From assembly GCA_016929435.1 (NCBI GenBank), contig JAFGIV010000022.1, forward strand, positions 26,918-90,917: a stretch of 64,000 bases of DNA, written 5' to 3'. The position numbers and the translations under genes are program-made. The notes beneath the pieces were generated by a model. The model was not told where the DNA came from, searched no databases, and was given only the letters and a program-made list of their open reading frames with translations. This document shows positions 3,617-13,691 of the stretch, piece after piece; the stretch's first letter is position 1; each line of letters starts with the position of its first letter. Source of the stretch: Candidatus Uhrbacteria bacterium (GTDB lineage Bacteria; Patescibacteriota; Patescibacteriia; SG8-24).

Positions 3617-4696
3617 TCAAATTGTCCTGAACGGCAGGCGCCTAATGTCCTGCGTCAGGTCAAATACCTTGCCGACTCCCCGCCTTGAGAAGGCGGTTGA
3701 GAGGCTGAAAACGTCGGCAGCGCCGTAGTTAACGGCGTAACCGATATCCTCCATTGATCCTATGGTGACTATACTCACCGGCTCAAACGCCGATCCGGAA
3801 GTGAATCCGGTCATCGCCTCGACTCCAAAAACCGACTCCCTCCAGTGGCCGTCCTGGGTTCCGGCACCGTAATTTCCGTTCTCCACCGGAACCTTATGGC
3901 CATCATAATACGCCCCACCTACCTGCTCGAAAGCCGCCAACGCCTCGGTCCCAACGAAATGGGTATCAGCCCCCGGGTTGTAAAGGGAGGGGTTTTTGAG
4001 AAGACCCATGGCTTCCCAAAAAATACCGAATCCCAAGGAGTGTCCCATCTCGTGGAAAGCCACATTAGACAGGACGCCCTCCGCCAGCATCTGATCGGCA
4101 TCACTGTCATCTATGACGATGATGCTGACTGCCGGCAGAAGACTCGACCCTCGCCAAACGCAGGGGCCGGAATACCCCAAAATGCCTCCTGCCCCGTCAA
4201 TCGGGGCGATCTGGACAATTATTACGATATCGTCGATATCGTAGTCAATCCGGGGATGGGGTAACCCGTCACAGTATCCGGCCTCTATCGGGCTGGCGGA
4301 AAAACTGGCGGTCGGCAAATCTCCCACGATGATTCGCTCCCAACGAGCGGATGCCTCGTCGAAGGCGGATTCCGCGGACCTGCTGACTTGAGACACGAAA
4401 ATGAAATCAATATCGTATTCCCCACCTATGTCCGTATCCGCATCCGTATCGGTATCCGTATCGGCGTCCGCATCGGCATCAGCGTCAGCATCGGCATCCG
4501 AGCCGCCTAGGTCAACGCAGAACCCGGAAGCGCAGGTCAAATCCCCATCACAAGCCCCGCCTTCCGTGCACTGGCAGCCTTCGCTGCCGATCGCACAACC
4601 CCCTTCTCCGCTGCCCTCATCCTCATCACAGGCCGAAAGGCCAATCACCATCAGAAACATCGCCACGGACAGAATCGTTACGTTCAGGTTTTGCAT
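3617..4696 (-). CDS. leishmanolysin-like (peptidase M8 family) zinc metalloprotease lipoprotein with an N-terminal Cys-rich EGF-like module and a (DA)n/(DT)n linker
   Basis: Start at MQNLNVTILSVAMFLMVIGLSAC (lipobox) with RBS GGAGGGG upstream. HEMGHSLGF matches the M8 HExxHxxGF motif, with a distal His/Met-turn candidate (...DGHWRESVFGVEAMTG). N-terminal module C-x5-C-x-C-x5-C-x5-C-x4-C, then DADADADADADTDTDTDADTD. Confidence 0.6.
   Translation of the reverse strand: MQNLNVTILSVAMFLMVIGLSACDEDEGSGEGGCAIGSEGCQCTEGGACDGDLTCASGFCVDLGGSDADADADADADADTDTDTDADTDIGGEYDIDFIFVSQVSRSAESAFDEASARWERIIVGDLPTASFSASPIEAGYCDGLPHPRIDYDIDDIVIIVQIAPIDGAGGILGYSGPCVWRGSSLLPAVSIIVIDDSDADQMLAEGVLSNVAFHEMGHSLGFGIFWEAMGLLKNPSLYNPGADTHFVGTEALAAFEQVGGAYYDGHKVPVENGNYGAGTQDGHWRESVFGVEAMTGFTSGSAFEPVSIVTIGSMEDIGYAVNYGAADVFSLSTAFSRRGVGKVFDLTQDIRRLPFRTI
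4431..4500. repeat. hexanucleotide microsatellite (GTATCC/GCATCG-like units) encoding the (DA)n/(DT)n linker
   Basis: tccgtatccgcatccgtatcggtatccgtatcggcgtccgcatcggcatcagcgtcagcatcggcatccg. An imperfect 6-nt periodicity lies inside the M8 protease gene. Confidence 0.8.
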
Positions 4697-4759
4697 TTCA
4701 CCCCTCCTATGGGTATGTGGGCGTTCCATTATGGAAACGCCATTTTCAAAGACGCCGAC

Positions 4760-4788
4760 ACCTTAGCGCTGTTTGCGGTTTTTGTCAA
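4760..4788 (-). promoter_or_regulatory. promoter of M8 protease gene (TTGACA-N17-TAAGGT)
   Basis: Minus strand TTGACA aaaaccgcaaacagcgc TAAGGT, followed by the conserved leader GTCTTTGAAAATGGCG plus a hairpin. Confidence 0.5.
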
Positions 4789-4796
4789 GAGATACC

Positions 4797-4838
4797 GAGA
4801 AACAAAAGGCGGATACAGGAGAAAATCCAGTATCCGCC
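4797..4838 (-). terminator. rho-independent terminator of the 4870..5796 gene
   Basis: Perfect 9-bp stem ggcggatac/gtatccgcc with a 13-nt loop, followed on the minus strand by TTTTGTTTCT. Confidence 0.55.
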
Positions 4839-4869
4839 GTAACCAAGCCCGAACCAAAGAACGTGATAA

Positions 4870-5796
4870 TCAGCAGTCTTCCTCTATATCGACAAAGAAA
4901 TCTTCTGTAACCCCCGCGCAAAAGGGATAGTCGCAGAAGCCGTCCCCTACCCAATCACACGGATCGTCGGCACCGCAGGTGCAGGCATCATATACCAAAT
5001 CTTCACATGCGCCGTCGCATCCGCCATCTTCCCCAATATGAGATCCAGCACAAATGCTTATGCCTTCACTCATCCAATAGTGGCAATAACCGTCCGGACA
5101 ATCGGAATCGTCTTCGCATGATATGGAACAGAAGTCTGTACCACCATCGATCAACTCAACGAAGCAACCTTCCGTGCCGCTCCCCATATCTGTGCAATAG
5201 GGATCGAGATCGCCAGAATTGCAGCACTCCTTGGAACAAAACCCGTAACCATCAATCAAGATGCATGTCTGCCCAGCCGTACAATCATCGTTGGATAGAC
5301 AATCGCCTCCCCAATCCCCAGATACCGGTTCCGCATCGCATACTCCGCTACCACAATCGTCACTGTCATCGAACGGACTGGAGACGGCCTGAGAACAGTC
5401 CTCATCGCAGTACCCGTCACCGACCCAGTTGCAGGGGTCATCGGAACCGCAGGTGCAGGCATCATATACCAAATCTTCACAGGCGCCGTAGCACTCGTCA
5501 GCGTCACCGTCAGCATCGGTGTCGGTGTCCGTATCGGTGTCAGTGTCCGTATCGGTGTCGGTATCCGTATCGGTGTCGGTGTCCGTATCGGTGTCAGACC
5601 CCGGATTTCCCGGATCAACGCAACGACCGGAAGCGCACACTAAGCCCGGATCGCATCCACCGCCCGGGGTGCACTCGCACCCCTTATTGCCGACCTGGCA
5701 ATCATCATCCATTTCATCCCCCCGGCAACCGGGTGCAAAAAGGGCCATTATTGCCGCTACCGCCACGAACAACATCCCAATCGATAGTTTCTTCAT
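4870..5796 (-). CDS. cysteine-rich secreted lipoprotein with (DT)14 linker and internally duplicated Cys modules
   Basis: Start at MKKLSIGMLFVAVAAIMALFAPGC (lipobox) with RBS AGGAGGGG. The N-terminal module (CQVGNKGCECTPGGGCDPGLVCASGRCVD) is paralogous to the M8 protein N-terminus. Then (DT)14 DADGDADE; the module YGACEDLVYDACTCGSDDPCNWVGDGYCD is repeated near the C-terminus, and the central module is paralogous to the 2974..3417 product. Confidence 0.7.
   Translation of the reverse strand: MKKLSIGMLFVAVAAIMALFAPGCRGDEMDDDCQVGNKGCECTPGGGCDPGLVCASGRCVDPGNPGSDTDTDTDTDTDTDTDTDTDTDTDTDTDADGDADECYGACEDLVYDACTCGSDDPCNWVGDGYCDEDCSQAVSSPFDDSDDCGSGVCDAEPVSGDWGGDCLSNDDCTAGQTCILIDGYGFCSKECCNSGDLDPYCTDMGSGTEGCFVELIDGGTDFCSISCEDDSDCPDGYCHYWMSEGISICAGSHIGEDGGCDGACEDLVYDACTCGADDPCDWVGDGFCDYPFCAGVTEDFFVDIEEDC
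5497..5598. repeat. hexanucleotide microsatellite (GTGTCG/GTATCC-like units) encoding (DT)n
   Basis: About 17 tandem 6-nt units (gtcggtgtccgtatcggtgtcagtgtccgtatcggtgtcggtatccgtatcggtgtcggtgtccgtatcggtgtc). Confidence 0.85.
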
Positions 5797-5861
5797 CCTT
5801 ACCCCTCCTATTGGGTATATGGGCCTCCCGTTCGGGAGCGCCATTTGTTAAAGACACCGAA

Positions 5862-5890
5862 ATTTTAATGCAAATCGCATATTTTGTCAA
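5862..5890 (-). promoter_or_regulatory. promoter of 4870..5796 gene (TTGACA-N17-TAAAAT)
   Basis: Minus strand TTGACA aaatatgcgatttgcat TAAAAT, followed by the conserved leader TTTCGGTGTCTTTAACAAATGGCG plus a hairpin. Confidence 0.55.
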
Positions 5891-5912
5891 GGGCCCATCC
5901 TGACACGGCCGA

Positions 5913-5951
5913 ACCAAAACAAAAACGGCTTTGAATTATGGCCAAAACCGT
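5913..5951 (-). terminator. rho-independent terminator of the small lipoprotein gene, paralogous to the terminator at 2905..2948
   Basis: Hairpin acggctttg-aattatggc-caaaaccgt, followed on the minus strand by TTTTTGTTTTGG. Near-identical in sequence to the 2905..2948 hairpin (gacggctttgg...ccaaagccgt). Confidence 0.5.
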
Positions 5952-5987
5952 CTTTCTTGAGAAGAAATCCCTCCCTCTCTCCCCTCT

Positions 5988-6161
5988 TTATCTTTCCTCT
6001 TTTTTTTCTTCCTCACCCGCATCAACTCCACCCATCGGAATGCTGACCAAGACCCGACCAGCATCCGACTTGTGTGCCGATGAGGATGAGGAAGTGGCGC
6101 AACCGCCAATTACCATAATCATCGTCAGTATCAACACCAACAAAACCCGAATTTCTCTCAT
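5988..6161 (-). CDS. small lipoprotein (57 aa), not in the ORF track because under 60 aa
   Basis: Minus-strand ATG (complement of 6159-6161) translates to MREIRVLLVLILTMIMVIGGCATSSSSSAHKSDAGRVLVSIPMGGVDAGEEEKKEER with stop TAA. RBS AAGGAG, its own promoter and its own terminator. Confidence 0.5.
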   Translation of the reverse strand: MREIRVLLVLILTMIMVIGGCATSSSSSAHKSDAGRVLVSIPMGGVDAGEEEKKEER

Positions 6162-6198
6162 CTATCTTCTCCTTTGTTTACCTGTTTTGATTGGACAA

Positions 6199-6227
6199 AC
6201 TATAGCGTTTTTAGGCGGTTTTGTCAA
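6199..6227 (-). promoter_or_regulatory. promoter of small lipoprotein gene (TTGACA-N17-TATAGT)
   Basis: Minus strand TTGACA aaaccgcctaaaaacgc TATAGT. This is the fourth promoter of the array with the same -35 and spacing. Confidence 0.55.
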
Positions 6228-6298
6228 GCCTGACAGGCAAAGACCGCCGGCTCTGGCCGACGGCCTTACCTGGCCAAATTCAACCGAAAGAAGTTGGG

Positions 6299-6892
6299 TT
6301 ATCCCTCCTTCTTCGCCCCCCCGGAATGGCTGATGTCGGACAGGAGAACGTTCTCCACGAAAATCCCCCGCGGATAGAATATCCTCTCCAGTTCGTTCTT
6401 GCATTCCACCTCCACGGCATCGCGCTTGGCGGAAACGACATCCTGATAGTCGTAGCGGGAGGCGATCATCCGCATCCGGGAACGGATGGTCGGCCGGACG
6501 ATCTTGGCCACGAAATCCTCCCCTATGTTCTGCCACATGGTCGGAACCTGGTTGATGTCCAAACGGAGCAGTACGGTCCCCTCAATGGATATCTGCTTGC
6601 CGTCCGCCGTCTGGGCGATGATCGGCAGGTCACCCAAGGCCTGCTCGTGTTCCGGGTTGAACTGCCGGCTGATGCCGTACTCCAGGGTCTGGGTATTGAA
6701 AAGCTTGGCCTTCTGCCAAAACGGTATCTTCAGGTGCAGTCCGGGGGTCAGAACCTTCTTCAGCACTCCCCGCCCCAGGTCATATACGCAGGCCACATAC
6801 CCCGGCGGAACGTGAACGAAAAGCCCCTTCAGGACATCCTCCACCACGAAGGAATACATTATCTTGTCCAGGCTGTCTCCGGATCGGGACAT
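6299..6892 (-). CDS. SPFH/Band 7 (prohibitin/HflK-like) domain protein
   Basis: VPPGYVACVYDLGRGVLKKVLTPGLHLKIPFWQKAKLFNTQT... resembles the SPFH domain beta-sheet core. Confidence 0.55.
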   Translation of the reverse strand: MSRSGDSLDKIMYSFVVEDVLKGLFVHVPPGYVACVYDLGRGVLKKVLTPGLHLKIPFWQKAKLFNTQTLEYGISRQFNPEHEQALGDLPIIAQTADGKQISIEGTVLLRLDINQVPTMWQNIGEDFVAKIVRPTIRSRMRMIASRYDYQDVVSAKRDAVEVECKNELERIFYPRGIFVENVLLSDISHSGGAKKEG

Positions 6893-6925
6893 AAGACGGA
6901 CGGTTAGGTTGAATTACGGGCTTCC

Positions 6926-7612
6926 CTATGATTCCCAGCCGGAAATCATGCGCCTGATCCAGAATATGACCATTCCGAAAAACAGGGAAGTCAGGATGAA
7001 AAGGGATTTCACCATCGGCAGGAGCATCAGGACGGCCAAGGTGAACAGGGGGAAGAAGATCATGTACATCACGTCGGCCTTGGTGACCAGGTGCTCGCGC
7101 TTCTTCTGGACGGCATATATCTGGGCGAACAGCACCGCCGCCACTGCCGTTGCCCAAAACCAGCTGCGGGCCGCCAGGTCAAAACCGAAAAAGTCGGTAT
7201 TAACGGCTGCGGGCGGACTGATCCAGGGGTAGATAAGGTCCGCGCCGGTGAAACGGATTCCTGCCATGAAAACCTGGTATATGAGCACCAAAACCAGACC
7301 CTGTACCCCCAAGACGAATACCTTCGACCAATAGCTGACCCTATGGTCCTTCAGTAGTTCCCGAATCTTCTCCTTCCGCCTTACCGGATCGGTCCTGAAC
7401 TCCCGCTCCAGTTCCCCGATTTTCTCGCTTAGCCTCTCATAGCTGGAACGGCTTCGCTCGTCGATGATCGTGAACGGCAAGAGAGCGACGCGCAGGACCA
7501 CGGTCAATTCCACGATAGCCAGCCCCAGGTTACCGAAAGCCGGCCCCTGATACAGCCAAATCAGGGCGTTCAGGAGCGGGACGTATAGCCAATCGTGCCA
7601 AAATGCACCCAT
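6926..7612 (-). CDS. yidC: membrane protein insertase YidC (short form)
   Basis: Polytopic 228-aa protein; N-terminal LIWLYQ...GLAIVELTVVLRVALLPFT and overall topology typical of short YidC/Oxa1. Confidence 0.7.
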   Translation of the reverse strand: MGAFWHDWLYVPLLNALIWLYQGPAFGNLGLAIVELTVVLRVALLPFTIIDERSRSSYERLSEKIGELEREFRTDPVRRKEKIRELLKDHRVSYWSKVFVLGVQGLVLVLIYQVFMAGIRFTGADLIYPWISPPAAVNTDFFGFDLAARSWFWATAVAAVLFAQIYAVQKKREHLVTKADVMYMIFFPLFTLAVLMLLPMVKSLFILTSLFFGMVIFWIRRMISGWES

Positions 7613-7723
7613 AGTGATTTCCTTGACGGAACAGAGAAATTATATCCGAACGGCGCTTGGGAAGCAACATCCAAAAGGCAAGGGGGCGTCTCCTGACGCC
7701 CCCTTCGCCGTGCCGATTCCGGC

Positions 7724-8062
7724 TTACATCTGCCTGTAGGCACCGTTCCGCCAGGCGTCGATCGACTGCCTGAGGAACGGGTTTTCCACGATCTCGTAGA
7801 TCATGGACTTTCCGTTGCGGTTCATGGTGACGATCCGGTACTTGCGGAGAATCCGCAGCTGGTGCGAGACCCGAGAAACGGAATATCCGAACAGCTTGGC
7901 GATCTCGCTGACCGTCAGCCCGTTTTTGGACTGGGCCAGGGCACAGATTATCCTGTATCGGACCTGTCCGGAAATCGCCCGGAGAACGTCATGATTCTTC
8001 CTGAACTTGTCGCTGGCAAGATATTGGCGTATCTTGTCCAGTTCCCTGTCGGTTACTGGCAT
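7724..8062 (-). CDS. ArsR/SmtB-family HTH transcriptional regulator
   Basis: 112 aa with a wHTH core (...RIICALAQSKNGLTVSEIAKLFGYSVSRVSHQLRILRKYRIVTMNRNGK). Confidence 0.65.
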   Translation of the reverse strand: MPVTDRELDKIRQYLASDKFRKNHDVLRAISGQVRYRIICALAQSKNGLTVSEIAKLFGYSVSRVSHQLRILRKYRIVTMNRNGKSMIYEIVENPFLRQSIDAWRNGAYRQM

Positions 8063-8105
8063 GTTTTTGCGTTATTAATTCTTAACATGATTTTTTTGCG
8101 CAAAA
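8060..8105. promoter_or_regulatory. nested inverted repeats overlapping the arsR-like start codon (putative autoregulatory operator)
   Basis: CATGTT-N18-AACATG nested inside TTTTTGCG-N27-CGCAAAA; the outer CATG includes the regulator's start codon. Confidence 0.35.
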
Positions 8106-8263
8106 TTTACGGTAGCAACGAACAGAAAAAGTGTCAAGCGGCAAAAACCTGCGGATATCCCCACCCGCTCCGGACCGCCCTTTTCACGGACCTTGACGGG
8201 ACCGCAAAAAGATGGTAAAAATAGGCAAACCAACGAAACAACCGCACCTTAAAGGAGGCCGAA

Positions 8264-8845
8264 ATGTATGAGGAGCAGAGTGCCAGGGACCTGACATTGG
8301 TCCTGGCCATGGGCCGCATTGGTCCCGAGCAGTTCGGGATCTTCGGACGGGGAAACATAGCGGATGGGGGGCCGCTCACCATCACGGCCACCGTGATAGG
8401 GGCGAGTCACGTAATCAACCTGTCCTACGACGACAGGGAGGTTTTCTCAGAGCTATTCGCATGCGTCGAATTCGCCTGCGATATCCCGCACCTGATCATC
8501 CCCCCGTGGGATGACCGGGGCCGGATTTCCAAAATTGAATTCAGGGCAGATTCCGCTACCCTGAGATATTCCTTCTGCCCCCGACTGCTTTCGGTCGGGG
8601 ACGGACGGAAAGAGACGGAACGGATAGCCGAAGCCGCTGTCCGAGCCGAAAACAACGGCCACGAGTTGGGTCTCATCCACGAGTTCCCTCCCGAACCGCA
8701 CGAAACATGCGGATCACGGACAATCGTCCTTGTCCGTTGGGACAGGGAAAAGAGGGCCATCTCAACCGAGACGGTCCACGAGTACCTCAATGAGGACCGG
8801 GTGGCATTCACCCGGTCGATAATTTCCATCCTCCCGCCGTCATAG
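8264..8845 (+). CDS. hypothetical protein
   Basis: 193-aa ORF with coding-like composition; no recognisable motifs. Confidence 0.35.
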   Translation: MYEEQSARDLTLVLAMGRIGPEQFGIFGRGNIADGGPLTITATVIGASHVINLSYDDREVFSELFACVEFACDIPHLIIPPWDDRGRISKIEFRADSATLRYSFCPRLLSVGDGRKETERIAEAAVRAENNGHELGLIHEFPPEPHETCGSRTIVLVRWDREKRAISTETVHEYLNEDRVAFTRSIISILPPS

Positions 8846-8948
8846 TAGCCCACCACGACACGACGCACCTTCCCCTCAAGCGCCTTTTCGGGCGCTTTTT
8901 CGTTCCCAAAACCCCAACAGGGAGCCGTCAGGCTGCGGGAAGGCGGAA

Positions 8949-9356
8949 TCAGGCCAAGACCTCCTGAATCACCCCGACCACGTCCTTCAGGCTGGAGGAG
9001 TCCTTCAGCAGGTGGCGGCTTATGTTGTGCTGAAATATGCCCTCCTGATTTTTCGTCCCGATGATATTGGTGAAGATGACCACGGGAACGTCCTTTCCCC
9101 AAACGGATTGCCGAAGGCCCTTCAGCATGGCGTAACCGTCCATTACCGGCATTATCAGGTCCAAAAGGACCAGGTCCGGCCTCTCCCTTTCCCCCAAATC
9201 CAGCCCGTCCCTGCCGTTGGCGGCCGTCACCACGTCGAAATCGGATTTTTCCAAAAACCGACGGAGGGGCTTGACCAGGACTTCCTCGTCCTCCACCACC
9301 ATCACCTTCCTCTTCCTTGCGCTCTTGCCGATCTTGACCATACTTCCCGATCCCAT
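8949..9356 (-). CDS. response regulator receiver (CheY-like, single domain)
   Basis: KVMVVEDEEVLVKPLRRFLEKSDFDVVTAANGRDGLDLGERERPDLVLLDLIMPVMDGYAMLKGLRQ... carries the receiver-domain acidic pocket and the phospho-acceptor D in LLDLIMP. Confidence 0.7.
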   Translation of the reverse strand: MGSGSMVKIGKSARKRKVMVVEDEEVLVKPLRRFLEKSDFDVVTAANGRDGLDLGERERPDLVLLDLIMPVMDGYAMLKGLRQSVWGKDVPVVIFTNIIGTKNQEGIFQHNISRHLLKDSSSLKDVVGVIQEVLA

Positions 9357-9476
9357 GATTTACGTGCAGTAATTATACACTGATTCCCGATACCGTAAAT
9401 GCCCGGTTTGGGTGGGGCAAATGCCGTTGGCGGAAAAACCGTTCCGACAGGAGACACCCGCCGAACGGATAGGGTC

Positions 9477-9505
9477 TGGACAACCGAAAAAGGACATGGT
9501 ATTGT
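9477..9505 (+). promoter_or_regulatory. candidate promoter of tRNA-Glu (TGGACA-N17-TATTGT)
   Basis: Hexamers with 17-nt spacing ending ~15 nt before the mature tRNA 5' end. Confidence 0.35.
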
Positions 9506-9520
9506 CCTTTCGGATATTGG

Positions 9521-9598
9521 GGTCCCATCGTCTAGCCCGGTCCAGGACGTCTCCCTCTCACGGAGAAAACAGGGGTTCGAATCCCCTTGGGACTACCA
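9521..9598 (+). tRNA. tRNA-Glu (anticodon CUC), CCA encoded
   Basis: Hand-folded cloverleaf: acceptor GGTCCCA/TGGGACT; anticodon stem TCTCC/GGAGA with loop CTCTCAC; T arm AGGGG-TTCGAAT-CCCCT. Closely resembles bacterial tRNA-Glu (GTCCCCTTCGTCTAG...CAGGGGTTCGAATCCCCT...). Confidence 0.85.
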
Positions 9599-9602
9599 GA
9601 AG

Positions 9603-9632
9603 CACTCACCGAATGGTGGGTGTTTTTATTTT
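9603..9632 (+). terminator. rho-independent terminator after tRNA-Glu
   Basis: Stem cactcacc/ggtgggtg (one G-U) with loop gaat, then TTTTTATTTT. Confidence 0.6.
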
Positions 9633-9694
9633 GTTCGCCTTTAAAAAACCGTGATATAGTTTTTGCGTAATCTAAGGCCTGTTTTCTTGGCTAT

Positions 9695-10081
9695 ATGTCT
9701 ATATCCATAAAAAATATTTTTACCGCCCATAACAATCGAAGCGCTTCTTTTCGGAAAAAAGCTCTTGGTTATTTTCTTGTCTTTCTGGGTGCGTTTCCAG
9801 CGGTTGCATTTGCTTTAGCCTTCGTATTTTGTTTGTTCTTTCCGAATAATCACCTGATGAGGACATACATCATGGTCGATTTTGCTCTTGTCGAAGTCGT
9901 TGGCCCTATGGCATACGTGTTGCTATTGCTGTTGGCTTTGGCTGTGTTTTCTGCGCCGTTTTTCCTGTTGGTCTATATTGGCTTTCTTCTTGTTGGTTCG
10001 AAGAAAAAGAAACCGTCGGGCCAAGCCGTGCTGTTCGCGGTGTTTGCCTATTTTATCTGCTTTTCCGTTTTTTTTTTCTGA
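9695..10081 (+). CDS. small polytopic membrane protein (3-4 TM), AT-rich islet
   Basis: Hydrophobic segments; stop TGA overlaps the next ATG (TGATG), so the two are translationally coupled. Confidence 0.5.
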   Translation: MSISIKNIFTAHNNRSASFRKKALGYFLVFLGAFPAVAFALAFVFCLFFPNNHLMRTYIMVDFALVEVVGPMAYVLLLLLALAVFSAPFFLLVYIGFLLVGSKKKKPSGQAVLFAVFAYFICFSVFFF

Positions 10082-10823
10082 TGACTGAGAATCTGAATAC
10101 GAAATTTGACAGGAAAGTCTCTGGAATGAAAAGTCTTAATACTGGAATCGGGCATCCTATCTTGCCCGAATTTGATGTCATTAACATTTCCAAGTATGTG
10201 AAGTACGATGACATTGTCATTTATCAGGGAGATAGCTACGGGTACAAGTATACGGGTGATGCCTATAGCCAGATCGCCTTGGACCTTGACGTTGAAGGTC
10301 GTACTCTGTTTGTCAGGCGCTCTGAGATGGAGACCTATGTCGTACTCTGTTTGTCAGGCGCTCTGAGATGGAGACCTATTACGATGTCGAAATAGGTCAT
10401 GTGAAGAACAGGTATCCTTTATACCCGGCCGGCACCAAGAAACTGACCATCGAAATCACCGTTCCTGACCTTGACCGCATCATTGTTGAGGGTGGACATG
10501 TCAGCCTAGAGGGTTTGGAAGTGAATGACCTGCGGATTGACCTAAATAAGCGGTTCGTTGAGCTGAAAGGGGATTTGGTGGTGAGAGACGGTTTTGTCCT
10601 GAATGCTAAAGGGGGAGTGGTAGATTTGGAGGGTTCCGCAAAAAACCTAGAAATAAATTCCGGGGACTGTTGGATTGATATGGAGAATTTTACGGCTGAG
10701 ACCGCCTCAATAAACGCCGTTAACACCAGTCGTTTGAACGTTTACGTAACGGAAAACATGGAGGTCATTTCCGGGGTTAATTCTGGGATAGTCAAACATT
10801 TCGATTTCCATCAGGAAGAGTAA
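10081..10823 (+). pseudogene. putative-adhesin/beta-helix-like (DUF2807/DUF4097-like) gene split into two ORFs (10081..10395 and 10368..10823) by a frameshifting 41-bp tandem duplication
   Basis: Removing one 41-bp copy joins ...GRTLFVRRSEMETY to YDVEIGHVKNRYPLY... in frame, giving a single 233-aa protein. Confidence 0.6.
10298..10379 (+). repeat. perfect tandem duplication, 2 x 41 bp (gtcgtactctgtttgtcaggcgctctgagatggagacctat)
   Basis: Copy 10298-10338 is identical to copy 10339-10379. 41 is not a multiple of 3, so the duplication causes a frameshift. Confidence 0.95.
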
Positions 10824-10841
10824 CCGTGTTTGAAAAGACGA

Positions 10842-10953
10842 CGTTCCAGCACGAAAAGCACTACCACCCGCATCCAGCACGGGGAGGCTGTCTCCAATAG
10901 CTGGAGACGGCCTTTAAAGCCTCGAAACAAAAACACCCGAAAGGGTGTTTTTG
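10842..10953 (+). repeat. intergenic palindromic repeat element copy A (~110 bp: hairpin GGCTGTCTCCAatagcTGGAGACGGCC plus terminator CACCCgaaaGGGTG-T5)
   Basis: ~88% identical to copy B (13580..13691); the core palindrome also occurs at 12390..12428. Sits 19 nt after a stop codon. Confidence 0.85.
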
Positions 10954-11118
10954 TGTGCTGGGTTATTTTAATTGCGAAGGGGGGGTGCTTTATGGTATTG
11001 TGCAAATAACATATTTCAATCTAGAAAATAATTTTCGCTTCGTTAGTGGCGGTGCTTTATATCGTTATTCGAAGCTATGTCGAGGGAATTATTAATAATA
11101 TACTTAACCATTGCAAAT

Positions 11119-11724
11119 ATGAAAAATAATATTTTTATTAGAGTGATGTTGGCCACAATGGGCCTCTTTTCTCTATCTTTGTTCTTTTTGGTCTCCAATG
11201 TATACGCATATGTAGCAAGTGGATACACCCGCCCTTCAGGAAACGTAAGTTTTTACTTGCATGGCGCACTGGTGAATGTGGGGTGGCAGGGAGCGATAGA
11301 CAACGCTCGTAGCGAATGGAACGGGGCAGGATCTTCCTTTACGTTCTCTCAAAGCGGTACCGCTACAAGAAGCCCGAGCTTGGTTCAAAGCAGCACGACT
11401 GATGGGTATAACGACATCGGAGCACTTTCGTTGGACCTCAGTTATGTTGGATTTACATCTTCTGTTGCTAGTGGAACATCGATCATTGAAACGGACACAG
11501 CTTATAACTTGGAGAAGTCCTTTGATGTAAATCCGAATATTTATCAGTATGATGTTGAGAGTGTTGCTGTACATGAATTGGGCCACTGGTTACATTTGGA
11601 CGAAACACAGTCGTGGCGATGCTTTGCGTCTCCGCCAAGTATGTGCGGATCAGTTTCTATGGGGAGCACATATATGCGTTCTATAGAATCCGACGACATT
11701 AACGGCATTCAATATATCTATTAA
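11119..11724 (+). CDS. secreted metzincin-like zinc metalloprotease (snapalysin M7 / matrixin M10-like)
   Basis: Signal peptide MKNNIFIRVMLATMGLFSLSLFFLVSNVYA. Zinc motif VAVHELGHWLHLDE, a Cys pair, Met-turn candidate STYM and C-terminal DDINGIQYIY (matrixin DDIxGIQxLY signature). Confidence 0.6.
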   Translation: MKNNIFIRVMLATMGLFSLSLFFLVSNVYAYVASGYTRPSGNVSFYLHGALVNVGWQGAIDNARSEWNGAGSSFTFSQSGTATRSPSLVQSSTTDGYNDIGALSLDLSYVGFTSSVASGTSIIETDTAYNLEKSFDVNPNIYQYDVESVAVHELGHWLHLDETQSWRCFASPPSMCGSVSMGSTYMRSIESDDINGIQYIY

Positions 11725-11725
11725 T

Positions 11726-12337
11726 ATGAAGAAAACAACATTAATTGTAGCGGGATTGGCGGTTATAGTGTCTCTTACGACGCTGATGTACGGACTTGAT
11801 GGCAAAGACCAGGGAGGCAGCGCAACCCCACAGGGCGACGGAACGAGATTGTTGGTCAATGCCTTGCGTACAGAGCCTGATTTTAGGGTTGATACCCTTG
11901 ATTCCAGTATGATAGTTCAGGGGGAGGTGATTGCGGTCGATGAACTGTCTGACCAACCCTTAAGCCACAATACGCGTATAACCATTTCTGTCGACCAGTT
12001 GATTAAGGGGGATGATGTCAGCGAAACGATAGAGGTTTATGCGTTAGGTGGCGGCGGTGTAGAGGTTGTAGGAGATAACGAGAAAATAGGTCTTGTTGCA
12101 GGTGACGTCGGCATTTTCTTCCTTGGTTGGATGCCTGTGTCTGAAGGGTTCTACACATTTTTTGGCGGTTCAAGGGGCGTTTATGTTGAAAAGGACGCAC
12201 ATATTCGTAATTGGGGTGGAAAATCAATTAAAACTGATAGGTTTGTGCGCGAGATTGAGAAAGTGCTAGCTGACCCTGATGATAGAGAACATCAAAAGAC
12301 TTTGGGAGAGATGATCCGTGATAAGGAGTCTGAATAG
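11726..12337 (+). CDS. secreted partner protein P1 (signal peptide; paralogous to 12898..13527)
   Basis: MKKTTLIVAGLAVIVSLTTLMYG signal peptide; starts 1 nt after the protease stop. Shares the core ...V.G.VI......V.V...IKGD....TV...GG with the P2 paralog. Confidence 0.5.
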   Translation: MKKTTLIVAGLAVIVSLTTLMYGLDGKDQGGSATPQGDGTRLLVNALRTEPDFRVDTLDSSMIVQGEVIAVDELSDQPLSHNTRITISVDQLIKGDDVSETIEVYALGGGGVEVVGDNEKIGLVAGDVGIFFLGWMPVSEGFYTFFGGSRGVYVEKDAHIRNWGGKSIKTDRFVREIEKVLADPDDREHQKTLGEMIRDKESE

Positions 12338-12389
12338 AAGGTGTAAGAGGATACTACTTTTTCTTGGGACTACCACTTACATAAAGCGC

Positions 12390-12428
12390 GAGGAGGCCGT
12401 CTCCAATAGCTGGAGACGGCCGTTAGGG
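12390..12428 (+). repeat. repeat element copy C (core palindrome only, perfect 11-bp stem GGCCGTCTCCA atagc TGGAGACGGCC)
   Basis: Identical core to copy A. Lies immediately upstream of, and truncating, the second protease ORF; an in-frame TAG sits inside the repeat. Confidence 0.8.
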
Positions 12429-12430
12429 TC

Positions 12431-12895
12431 TTGTTGGTTACGCCTTTAGGTTCTGCGCTTGCTTGTTCCCAGGATTCATTGTTTTGGACTAGCGCCGTTG
12501 ATAGCGGGGAGATACGTTGGGGCGGTTCCACAAAGTATTCGTGGGAGTGGCAAGATGCGAGGGGTGCATGGAACCAGTTGAGTCCCGTTGATATTCTTCC
12601 TGATACAATATACACATATGAGGATTTAAAAATTTCGGACGTTGACAGCCATTACTTGGGATATTGGGGGGCATACATTCCTTCGTTGGGGACTGATGAT
12701 TTGGAGCTTAATGAATATTTTATGGATGGGGGCTCATACGGAAACAGGGCACATATCGTCTCTCATGAACTTGGCCGTGCTTTAGGTCTCGACCATGTTG
12801 ATGGTTGCGATCATGTGATGGATGATTATCAATATTGCACTTCAGTCACACCGTCATCAAACGATGAATGTAGCTACGATGAATTATGGAACTAG
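12431..12895 (+). CDS. degenerate paralog of the metzincin-like protease (5'-truncated, no signal peptide, zinc-motif H->R); possible pseudogene
   Basis: The ORF begins at TTG with no upstream ATG, and an in-frame stop lies in the repeat just upstream. Motif HIVSHELGRALGLDHVDGCDH is snapalysin-like HExGHxLGLxDH, but the second His is Arg (CGT where His would be CAT). Confidence 0.5.
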   Translation: MLVTPLGSALACSQDSLFWTSAVDSGEIRWGGSTKYSWEWQDARGAWNQLSPVDILPDTIYTYEDLKISDVDSHYLGYWGAYIPSLGTDDLELNEYFMDGGSYGNRAHIVSHELGRALGLDHVDGCDHVMDDYQYCTSVTPSSNDECSYDELWN

Positions 12896-12897
12896 GG

Positions 12898-13527
12898 ATG
12901 AAAGGCAAAATTATAGGCGGGGGGGTACTGCTTCTTGGCGTGCTGGGTATTGGTCTTCACGCTAATGTTTTGAGGGTGCCGGGTATTGTTAACCAGGTTG
13001 GCACTGTTGCAATCGCTAACTTTTCGGATGATGCCGAACTCGTAGGAGCGGCACATAACGTTTTTGTTGGTAAGGTAATAAAGAAACAGGACAGCTTTGT
13101 TGAGGGCAGGCTTGCCTTCACTCCTTATGAGGTTGTCGTCCTTTCCAATATCAAAGGTGATTTAGAAGGAACGGTAACGGTCCTTCAAAATGGGGGGTAT
13201 AAAGATGGGTTCTTGCAAATCTTGCATGATTCCGAATCGCCTGATGGGAGACTTCCATTTCCTGAAGTCAATCAATTATATCTGTTTTCAAGCAGACATA
13301 ATGTTGAGGCCGATGTCCACTACCTTCTTCCTACGATTCATGCTATGGAAAAGGTGAGTTCGAATACAGAATTTGGTGCCCAGGCTGACATTGCCGCCAT
13401 AACCAAGAGTGTTCGCATAGAAGAGCTGAGGGAAGCATATAAAAATGAGGTAGTTCCTTTGGCGGATAGGGAGCACGGTAGTGATTTCAATAGCTACAAT
13501 AAAACTGTACCGCAAAAGATTGAGTAG
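12898..13527 (+). CDS. secreted partner protein P2 (paralog of P1)
   Basis: Start chosen at MKGKIIGGGVLLLGVLGIGLHA (signal peptide), 3 nt after the upstream stop. Similar to P1. Confidence 0.5.
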   Translation: MKGKIIGGGVLLLGVLGIGLHANVLRVPGIVNQVGTVAIANFSDDAELVGAAHNVFVGKVIKKQDSFVEGRLAFTPYEVVVLSNIKGDLEGTVTVLQNGGYKDGFLQILHDSESPDGRLPFPEVNQLYLFSSRHNVEADVHYLLPTIHAMEKVSSNTEFGAQADIAAITKSVRIEELREAYKNEVVPLADREHGSDFNSYNKTVPQKIE

Positions 13528-13579
13528 GTTACGGGTTTGTGACAGAACTGATGTCGCACTGCCGTCTTGAAAAATCACC

Positions 13580-13691
13580 GCTCCAGCACGAAGGACACTG
13601 CCGCCCACATCCAGCACGGGGAGGTTGTCTCCACTATCTGTAAACGGCCGTTAAAGCCTCGAAACAAAAACACCCGAAAGGGTGTTTTTTG
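13580..13691 (+). repeat. repeat element copy B (~110 bp), at the islet boundary
   Basis: gctccagcacgaaggacactgccgcccacatccagcacggggaggttgtctcc...aaacacccgaaagggtgtttttt aligns to copy A; its palindrome is partly degraded. Confidence 0.85.

What the first reader, a model, noticed from the sequence alone, without database searches (positions are those of the whole stretch)
10298..10379. Perfect 41-bp tandem duplication frameshifts a putative-adhesin-like gene into two ORFs
The units 10298-10338 and 10339-10379 are identical. Deleting one restores a single 233-aa ORF: ...GRTLFVRRSEMETY joined to YDVEIGHVKN..., with a beta-helix putative-adhesin-like C-terminal part. The result is that ORF-track entries 10081..10395 and 10368..10823 overlap in different frames. 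Because the copies are perfect, this is either a very recent inactivating or phase-variable duplication, or an assembly artefact.
Basis: seen in the sequence. Interest (0 to 1): 0.6.

Follow-up and report, generated by a model that had tools for sequence, protein, structure and literature searches.

The report
Twice-frameshifted membrane Toastrack pseudogene
A perfect 41-base tandem duplication is present in the sequencing reads, and it is one of two frameshifts that break a membrane-anchored DUF2807 ("Toastrack") gene of a Candidatus Uhrbacteria genome into three pieces, which makes this an ordinary, recently inactivated gene.

Summary
Bases 10298-10338 and 10339-10379 are identical, and removing one copy gives a 233-aa ORF with a significant DUF2807 match that spans the junction.

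- All homologues, about 50 proteins and 18 complete genomic loci from Patescibacteria, are single ORFs. Their N-terminal multi-TM region matches the upstream window ORF 9695-10081. The ancestral gene is therefore 9695-10823 (about 362 aa).
- The gene carries a second frameshift at a T10 run (10068-10077), the longest homopolymer in the window. T11 restores the frame and aligns without gaps.

The artefact reading is largely excluded. An independent k=31 Logan assembly of run SRR13394437 has a contig that is 100% identical to window 5568-10327. It ends exactly 30 nt (k-1) into copy 1. A graph simulation predicts that end only if the duplication junction is in the reads. The same contig carries T10.

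The "adhesin" label is only a Pfam name. The architecture is multi-TM plus a C-terminal Toastrack beta-helix (LiaF-like). No autotransporter features were detected.

Best reading: a real, recently pseudogenised gene inside a low-GC island next to tRNA-Glu. Reversible phase variation, or a co-existing intact allele, cannot be excluded without read mapping. Interest is low.

The parts
9695..10081 (+). Fragment 1 of the broken gene: 128-aa N-terminal multi-TM region. It ends at a TGA that overlaps the ATG of fragment 2.
   Evidence: The ORF list is. Its 'IMVDFALVEVVG...YVLLLLL' motif aligns with the N-terminal TM region of the fused homologues. The AF2 model has helices at residues 5-148, and hydrophobic segments lie at 22-55, 58-103 and 107-134.
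10068..10077 (+). T10 homopolymer, the first frameshift site. T11 (or T8) would fuse fragment 1 to fragment 2.
   Evidence: This is the longest homopolymer in the window. Inserting one T gives ...FSVFFFLMTENL..., which aligns without gaps with the homologues. The tract is also T10 in Logan contig L022. No homologue gene has a run longer than 8.
10081..10395 (+). Fragment 2: 104-aa ORF holding the start of the DUF2807 domain. Its last 18 residues (VVLCLSGALRWRPITMSK) are out-of-frame read-through of copy 2.
10298..10338 (+). Copy 1 of the 41-bp unit. It encodes (G)RTLFVRRSEMETY, residues 203-215 of the reconstructed protein.
   Evidence: Logan contig L022 ends at 10327, 30 nt into this copy.
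10339..10379 (+). Copy 2 of the 41-bp unit: the +41 nt insertion relative to all homologues and the second frameshift.
10368..10823 (+). Fragment 3: 151-aa ORF holding the rest of the Toastrack beta-helix. It starts at the ATG inside copy 2. NCBI annotates only 10401-10823 (140 aa, MBN1585560.1).
   Evidence: The AF2 model has pLDDT of roughly 87-96 (10-residue block means) over most of residues 240-340.
10830..10952 (+). 3' repeat element after the gene, holding a hairpin at 10886-10912 and a terminator-like palindrome at 10929-10954. Related copies lie at 12369-12425 and 13567-13689.
9521..9598 (+). tRNA-Glu(CUC), followed by its terminator at 9598-9627. It marks the left edge of the low-GC island (about 9600-13550) that contains the gene.

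Best explanation
The locus 9695-10823 is a recently inactivated gene (pseudogene) for a membrane-anchored protein. The ancestral product has a roughly 135-aa multi-TM N-terminus and a C-terminal DUF2807/Toastrack beta-helix, about 362 aa in all. This corresponds to the natural 'short form' of a family that is widespread in Patescibacteria.

Two independent lesions, both real in the DNA, disrupt it.
- A 1-bp loss in a poly-T run (inferred T11 to T10, at 10068-10077) separates the membrane anchor from the soluble domain.
- A perfect 41-bp tandem duplication (10298-10379) sits inside the most conserved motif of the domain. It shifts the frame by +2 and ends translation 16 nt after copy 2.

Neither surviving soluble fragment (104 aa and 151 aa) has a membrane anchor or a complete beta-helix, so no functional product is expected.

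What is shown: both lesions, their presence in the reads of an independent assembly, the intact fused state in all relatives, and the fold. What is inferred: loss of function, the ancestral T11 state, and that the null allele is the dominant or fixed one. The order of the two events is unknown. After either one, the other would be neutral.
For: Duplication and repaired ORF:
- The duplication is perfect and unique in the window.
- The repaired 233-aa ORF hits PF10988 DUF2807 at 46.2 bits (cut-off 24.2) over residues 42-215, which spans the junction.

Homologues:
- They are 264-488 aa and cover 93-98% of the reconstruction.
- They include the TM region encoded by the upstream window ORF.
- Alignments A1 and A2 have no gaps at either lesion site. 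R209, E211 and E213, all inside the duplicated unit, are invariant.
- In 18 of the 18 complete genomic loci the match lies in one ORF of 469-761 aa.
- Short forms of 340-364 aa are genuine. No N-terminal remnant lies upstream of them.

Read-level support:
- Logan contig L022 equals window 5568-10327 at 100% identity.
- It ends exactly k-1 = 30 nt into copy 1 and carries T10.
- The same k-1 rule explains both ends of L021.
- A k=31 graph simulation gives a break at 10327 only with the duplication present.

Other support:
- Two lesions fall in one 1.1-kb gene, while the rest of the window is 91% tiled by long ORFs with no other obvious splits.
- There are no further stops, and 70 of 93 family-invariant positions are retained, mostly with conservative changes elsewhere. 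This points to recent inactivation.
- In the AF2 model the C-terminal two-thirds of the beta domain is confident, and its top Foldseek hits are DUF2807/Toastrack crystal structures.
Against: - No read-level copy-number or allele-frequency data are available. An intact single-copy or T11 allele could co-exist, because it adds no new 31-mers.
- SRR13394437 may be the same read set the MAG was built from. The independence is therefore of the assembler, not of the sample.
- Both lesions are mechanistically reversible: deletion between perfect 41-bp repeats, and slippage in a T10 run. This is also what a phase-variable gene would look like.
- No closely related genome was found to show the ancestral DNA state directly.
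Confidence: 0.7

Rival explanations
1. Segregating null allele. The duplication and/or T10 allele is one variant in a mixed population that also holds an intact gene. The MAG consensus happened to follow the disrupted haplotype.
For: A single-copy allele is invisible in a k=31 graph. Logan contig L022 starts at 5568, inside a (Asp-Thr)n array and not at the 5452 boundary predicted from the window. This shows that the reads hold some variation not present in the window.
Against: Assemblers normally follow the better-covered branch. The Logan contig runs through the T-run without a break, so T10 is at least the dominant allele.
Confidence: 0.12
2. Contingency locus. The T-run and the 41-bp duplication act as reversible ON/OFF switches (phase variation) for an envelope protein.
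For: A T10/T11 coding homopolymer is intrinsically hypermutable. Deleting one perfect 41-bp copy restores the wild type exactly. The product is a membrane or envelope protein, the usual class for such switches.
Against: - Both switches are OFF at once in the consensus.
- The tract is not conserved: no homologue has a run longer than 8 even at 27-39% GC.
- No homologue shows a repeat at the duplication site.
- A non-triplet 41-bp duplication with two copies is not a repeat-number switch of the known kind.
Confidence: 0.1
3. Assembly, scaffolding or gap-closing artefact. The genome has one copy.
For: The copies are perfect, there is zero junction microhomology, and the source is a metagenome-assembled genome.
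Against: - An independent k=31 assembly breaks exactly at 10327. This requires the junction context (T followed by the start of the unit) in the raw reads.
- Control repeats in the same assembly obey the same rule.
- The window contains no Ns.
- The window shows no other obvious split genes.
Confidence: 0.04
4. Functional split or recoding. The pieces are expressed by design, for example by transcriptional slippage at the T-run and re-initiation at ATG 10368.
For: There is a TGATG stop/start overlap at 10079-10083, and an ATG inside copy 2. Long T/A runs are known to cause RNA polymerase slippage (my own knowledge).
Against: - No homologue is split.
- The duplication cuts the most conserved motif of a single beta-helix domain.
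- Fragments 2 and 3 lack any membrane anchor.
- Slippage cannot repair a +41 insertion.
Confidence: 0.03

Closest known systems
Toastrack domain proteins (Pfam DUF2807 PF10988, DUF4097, DUF2154), for example LiaF-type multi-TM + Toastrack proteins and the Bacteroidales 'putative adhesin' crystal structures 4OPW, 3PET, 4YGU, 3LJY
   Same: - The PF10988 match is above the curated cut-off.
- The AF2 model is a beta-rich C-terminal domain whose best PDB matches are these structures.
- The domain sits C-terminal to a multi-TM region, the architecture described for Toastrack proteins (PMC11237479).
   Different: - The gene here is disrupted.
- The TM region of the window copy does not itself match LiaI-LiaF-TM/PspC. 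Two homologues match below threshold (E 4.6e-4 and 0.017), and a third only at a non-significant E of 0.91.
- No psp or lia genes were recognised among the flanking ORFs that were scanned.
- A simple positive-inside reading (my inference) suggests the domain may face outward, unlike the intracellular topology argued for Toastrack.
Frameshift null alleles and pseudogenes made by short tandem duplications (general bacterial genetics; my own knowledge)
   Same: A perfect head-to-tail duplication whose length is not a multiple of 3 sits inside a coding region. It can revert by loss of one copy.
   Different: There is no junction microhomology. Both breakpoints fall in stems of small predicted hairpins (weak, z = -2.4). 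It is accompanied by a second, independent frameshift.
Homopolymer contingency loci, and poly(A/T)-tract frameshifts rescued by polymerase slippage in reduced genomes (my own knowledge)
   Same: A 10-nt coding homopolymer lies exactly at a frame break.
   Different: The tract is not conserved in relatives. No population length variation has been shown. The gene also carries a lesion that slippage cannot rescue.

Membership tests
DUF2807 / Toastrack domain family | Sequence match to PF10988 above Pfam's gathering score | tested here: met
   46.2 bits against a cut-off of 24.2 for the repaired 233-aa ORF, and 44.4 bits for the 362-aa reconstruction
DUF2807 / Toastrack domain family | [quoted passage not shown] | tested here: met
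   In the AF2 model the beta domain spans residues 162-346. It is confident (pLDDT mostly 87-96) from about residue 240 onwards. Residues 213-233, just after the duplication site, have pLDDT below 50. The top 20 Foldseek PDB hits are almost all DUF2807-type structures (4YGU, 3LYC, 3JX8, 3PET, 4OPW, 3LJY; E 9e-7 to 1e-3, TM up to 0.71 on the target).
DUF2807 / Toastrack domain family | Typical architecture: domain C-terminal to a multi-TM module | tested here: met
   Met in all homologues, and in the window once the T-run frameshift is repaired
Trimeric autotransporter adhesins (source of the Pfam name 'head GIN domain') | C-terminal YadA-type membrane anchor, coiled-coil stalk and N-terminal signal peptide | tested here: not met
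   Pfam finds only DUF2807/DUF4097 in the window protein and its homologues. The N-terminus is a polytopic TM region, and the protein ends right after the beta domain.
Pseudogene | Reading frame disrupted relative to intact homologues | tested here: met
   Two frameshifts here, against single ORFs in 18 of 18 complete genomic loci and in all database proteins
Pseudogene | Lesions are real in the DNA, not assembly errors | tested here: met
   Logan k=31 contig end at 10327, T10 in the same contig, and the graph simulation
Pseudogene | No functional product made | not testable with these tools
   Needs transcript or protein data
Phase-variable contingency locus | Hypermutable simple repeat at the frame break | tested here: met
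   T10 at 10068-10077, the longest homopolymer in the window
Phase-variable contingency locus | Repeat tract maintained in related genes | tested here: not met
   No run longer than 8 in 20 homologous genes
Phase-variable contingency locus | Length heterogeneity within a population, with ON and OFF states | not testable with these tools
   Requires read mapping. No reads are available here.

The most novel reading that the evidence does not exclude
The gene is a two-switch contingency locus in a CPR/Patescibacteria bacterium. A hypermutable T10/T11 run and a precisely revertible 41-bp duplication would toggle an envelope Toastrack protein ON and OFF. As far as I know, this would be a first indication of phase variation of an envelope protein in this episymbiotic lineage.
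Probability: 0.08. Interest if true: 0.55.

Novelty: new member of a known kind. Interest (0 to 1): 0.2.

Why it matters
The value is mostly practical.
- The public annotation lists the 140-aa tail as an ordinary DUF2807 protein (MBN1585560.1). The locus should be flagged as a pseudogene of a roughly 362-aa membrane protein.
- It shows that a perfect short duplication in a MAG can be checked without reads. One compares where independent k=31 (Logan) contigs end with the breaks predicted from the sequence.
- Biologically it is an ordinary case of gene decay inside a low-GC island of a small CPR genome. It would become interesting only if read data revealed ON/OFF heterogeneity.

Tried and rejected
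- **Metagenome scans.** Two scans found nothing: an exact 32-mer across the end of the unit and the flank, and a degenerate pattern for RSEMETYYDVE. No independent population and no close relative was found.
- **GTDB species representatives.** The scan returned 20 relatives at 37-56% identity but not the window genome itself. The ancestral DNA state could therefore only be inferred at protein level.
- **Exact-product look-ups.** The 151-aa, 140-aa, 104-aa, 128-aa, 157-aa (predicted right-hand Logan contig) and 135-aa products were not on record. The flanking genes gave the two Logan contigs that proved useful.
- **Literature.** A search for SRR13394437 returned nothing.
- **Rfam.** The island gave only the tRNA.
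- **Slipped-strand origin between short direct repeats.** Rejected, because there is 0 bp of junction microhomology. Hairpins at both breakpoints are only weakly supported.
- **Other origins, considered and dismissed from the anatomy alone.**
  - Target-site duplication: 41 bp is too long, and no element is present.
  - DGR template/variable repeat pair: the copies are perfect and adjacent.
  - CRISPR-like repeats: there are only two copies and no spacer.
- **Chimeric misassembly of the low-GC island.** Unlikely. Logan contigs cross both island borders at 100% identity.
- **5' truncation of the gene by the tRNA.** Not supported. Genuine short forms of 340-364 aa exist, with unrelated sequence upstream.
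- **Conserved gene neighbourhood.** None is shared between the window and the relatives.
- **Classical integrative island.** No integrase was recognised among the island ORFs, and there is no direct repeat of the tRNA 3' end.

Full report
**Observation.** Tandem Repeats Finder reports a single array at 10298-10379 (period 41, 2.0 copies, 100% identity, score 164). It is the only perfect tandem array in the 64-kb window. A string comparison confirms that the two units are identical. The repeat cannot be extended by even one base on either side, so the junction has no microhomology. ORFs 10081..10395 (104 aa) and 10368..10823 (151 aa) overlap in different frames. Removing one unit yields a 233-aa ORF.

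**What the gene is.** The repaired 233-aa product matches Pfam PF10988 (DUF2807, 'putative auto-transporter adhesin, head GIN domain') at 46.2 bits against a cut-off of 24.2. The match covers residues 42-215, so the domain runs straight across the duplication site. A database search returned one near-identical entry: a 140-aa 'DUF2807 domain-containing protein [Candidatus Uhrbacteria bacterium]'. This is MBN1585560.1, on a 98,934-bp contig, and corresponds to window 10401-10823. The window therefore comes from a CPR/Patescibacteria metagenome-assembled genome. The remaining hits are 40-51% identical and longer, at 264-488 aa.

- The homologues carry an N-terminal multi-TM region (…MVDF(K/R)LIEV.G..YYLLLLS…). 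It is clearly homologous to the window ORF immediately upstream, 9695-10081 (…IMVDFALVEVVGPMAYVLLLLL…).
- That ORF ends at a TGA overlapping the ATG of the 104-aa ORF, directly after a T10 run (10068-10077). This run is the longest homopolymer in the window.
- Adding one T fuses the two ORFs. Together with removal of one 41-bp copy, this gives a 362-aa protein that aligns with homologues without any gap at either site (alignments A1 and A2).
- The duplicated unit encodes RTLFVRRSEMETY, residues 203-215. This is the best-conserved block of the family, and R209, E211 and E213 are invariant.
- In 18 of the 18 complete genomic loci from GTDB species representatives (Komeili-, Parcu- and Falkowbacteria among others), the match lies in one ORF of 469-761 aa.
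- Shorter natural forms of 340-364 aa also exist, and the sequence upstream of them is unrelated. The window's 362-aa reconstruction is therefore a normal 'short form' and not a 5'-truncated gene.
- The gene thus lies in three pieces in three frames, with two independent frameshifts.

**Fold and family.**
- An AlphaFold2 model of the reconstruction has mean pLDDT 74. Helices span residues 5-148 and a beta domain spans residues 162-346.
- The beta domain is confident (pLDDT mostly 87-96) from about residue 240. Residues 213-233, just after the duplication site, are poorly predicted (pLDDT below 50).
- Its best PDB matches are the Bacteroidales 'putative adhesin' structures 4YGU, 3PET, 4OPW, 3LJY, 3JX8 and 3LYC (E 9e-7 to 1e-3, TM up to 0.71).
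- Ravi et al. (mSystems 2024, PMC11237479) unify DUF2807, DUF4097 and DUF2154 as the 'Toastrack' beta-helix. They cite 4OPW and note that the domain typically sits C-terminal to multi-TM modules, as in LiaF.
- Two homologues match PF22571 (LiaI-LiaF-TM_PspC) weakly in their TM region, below threshold (E 4.6e-4 and 0.017). A third matches only at E 0.91, and the window copy does not match.
- No autotransporter anchor, stalk or signal peptide was detected. 'Adhesin-like' is a database name, not a supported function.

**Is the duplication real?** This is the crux, and it could be tested indirectly.
- Two Logan (k=31) contigs assembled from run SRR13394437 are 100% identical to the window. L021 equals 10923-13680 and L022 equals 5568-10327.
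- L022 ends exactly 30 nt (k-1) into copy 1.
- As a control, the only other exact repeat of at least 30 nt nearby is 10914-10952 = 13651-13689. L021 starts at 10952-29 and ends at 13651+29, which is the same rule.
- I simulated the k=31 graph of the window. With the duplication, unitig boundaries fall at 10327, 10923 and 13680. With one copy, there is no boundary between 5452 and 10943.
- The raw reads must therefore contain the unit in two left contexts, which means they contain the copy1-copy2 junction.
- L022 also carries T10 and the same ORF breaks.
- Scaffolding, gap-closing and polishing artefacts are thereby essentially excluded.
- Two caveats remain. The run may be the one the MAG was built from. 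And a co-existing single-copy allele would add no new k-mers, so it would be invisible to this test.

**Why pseudogene is the best reading.**
- Two frame-breaking lesions fall within 300 bp of each other in one 1.1-kb gene. The rest of the window is 91% tiled by long ORFs with no other obvious split. That clustering is what relaxed selection on one gene produces, not random error.
- The reconstruction has no further stops. It keeps 70 of 93 positions that are invariant among homologues, and the differences are mostly conservative (K to R, I to V, L to M, D/E). Inactivation is therefore recent relative to the gene's divergence.
- Without its anchor, and with the beta-helix cut in its most conserved motif, no functional product is expected. 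This step is an inference.
- T11 as the ancestral state is also inferred, from the gapless alignment. T8 would cost one residue.

**Alternatives.**
- Both lesions are reversible in principle, so phase variation cannot be excluded. However, the T-run is not conserved: no homologue has a run longer than 8 even at 27-39% GC. Both 'switches' are also OFF together.
- Designed split expression is contradicted by the uniformly fused homologues.
- A DNA fold of the single-copy reconstruction places both breakpoints in stems of small hairpins (10282-10300 and 10373-10398). The signal is weak (z = -2.4), so I offer it only as a possible contributor to template switching.

**Context.**
- The gene sits in a low-GC stretch of about 4 kb (40-49% against 56-64% GC). 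The stretch begins right after tRNA-Glu(CUC) and its terminator.
- The island also holds two distantly related metallopeptidase + unknown gene pairs.
- Each of the three units is followed by a copy of a 57-123-nt repeat with an 11-bp-stem hairpin.
- The homologues come from low-GC Patescibacteria (locus GC 29-45%). This fits acquisition from such a donor, but no integrase or att-like repeat was found.
- Logan contigs cross both island borders, so the island is not a chimeric join.

**Verdict.** The feature is real, correctly described, and ordinary. It is a recently frameshifted gene, broken twice, for a multi-TM Toastrack protein in an Uhrbacteria MAG. Confidence is about 0.7 for a dominant or fixed pseudogene. 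The remainder is split among a segregating null allele, phase variation, an artefact, and designed split expression. Interest is low unless read mapping reveals ON/OFF heterogeneity.

Noticed in passing
window 9600-13550: Low-GC island (40-49% against 56-64% GC) that starts immediately after tRNA-Glu(CUC) at 9521-9598 and its terminator. It holds the broken DUF2807 gene and two distantly related (23% identity) metallopeptidase + unknown gene pairs (11077-12337 and 12431-13527). No integrase or att-like repeat was found. Both borders are confirmed by Logan contigs.
   Followed up: partly
window 10830-10952, 12369-12425, 13567-13689: A 57-123-nt repeat follows each of the three island units. It holds an 11-bp-stem hairpin, GGCCGTCTCCA-ATAGC-TGGAGACGGCC. 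In the first and third copies there is also a terminator-like palindrome, AAAAACACCCGAAAGGGTGTTTTT (39 nt exactly shared). There is no Rfam match, and the hairpin motif occurs nowhere else in the window.
   Followed up: partly
window 3617-5844 (- strand): Two secreted, Cys-rich, lipoprotein-like proteins with (Asp-Thr)n/(Asp-Ala)n linkers, seen as TRF arrays at 4431-4500 and 5515-5595. One carries an HEMGH metallopeptidase motif. A 36-nt exact repeat lies at 4972-5007 = 5446-5481. Logan contig L022 starts at 5568, inside the (DT)n array and not at the boundary predicted from the window. This hints at copy-number variation in the reads.
   Followed up: no
window 10401-10823: The public annotation lists only the 140-aa tail as an ordinary CDS (MBN1585560.1, 'DUF2807 domain-containing protein'). 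The locus is a three-piece pseudogene.
   Followed up: yes
L026 444-1714: A short-form homologue (P0010, 364 aa) also lies directly downstream of a tRNA gene (tRNA-Ser, 444-528). This resembles the tRNA-Glu adjacency in the window. It may be coincidence.
   Followed up: no
window 10282-10300 and 10373-10398: In the single-copy reconstruction, both duplication breakpoints fall inside stems of small predicted DNA hairpins (GACCTT/AAGGTC and GACCTATT/AATAGGTC). The fold z-score is -2.4, so support is weak.
   Followed up: partly
L001-L018: In relatives the gene is often preceded by a conserved protein of about 296-312 aa (8 loci) and a YdcF/DUF218-looking protein of about 214-218 aa (4 loci). In every locus the gene is at or below the locus GC, usually well below. 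None of these neighbours occurs in the window.
   Followed up: partly
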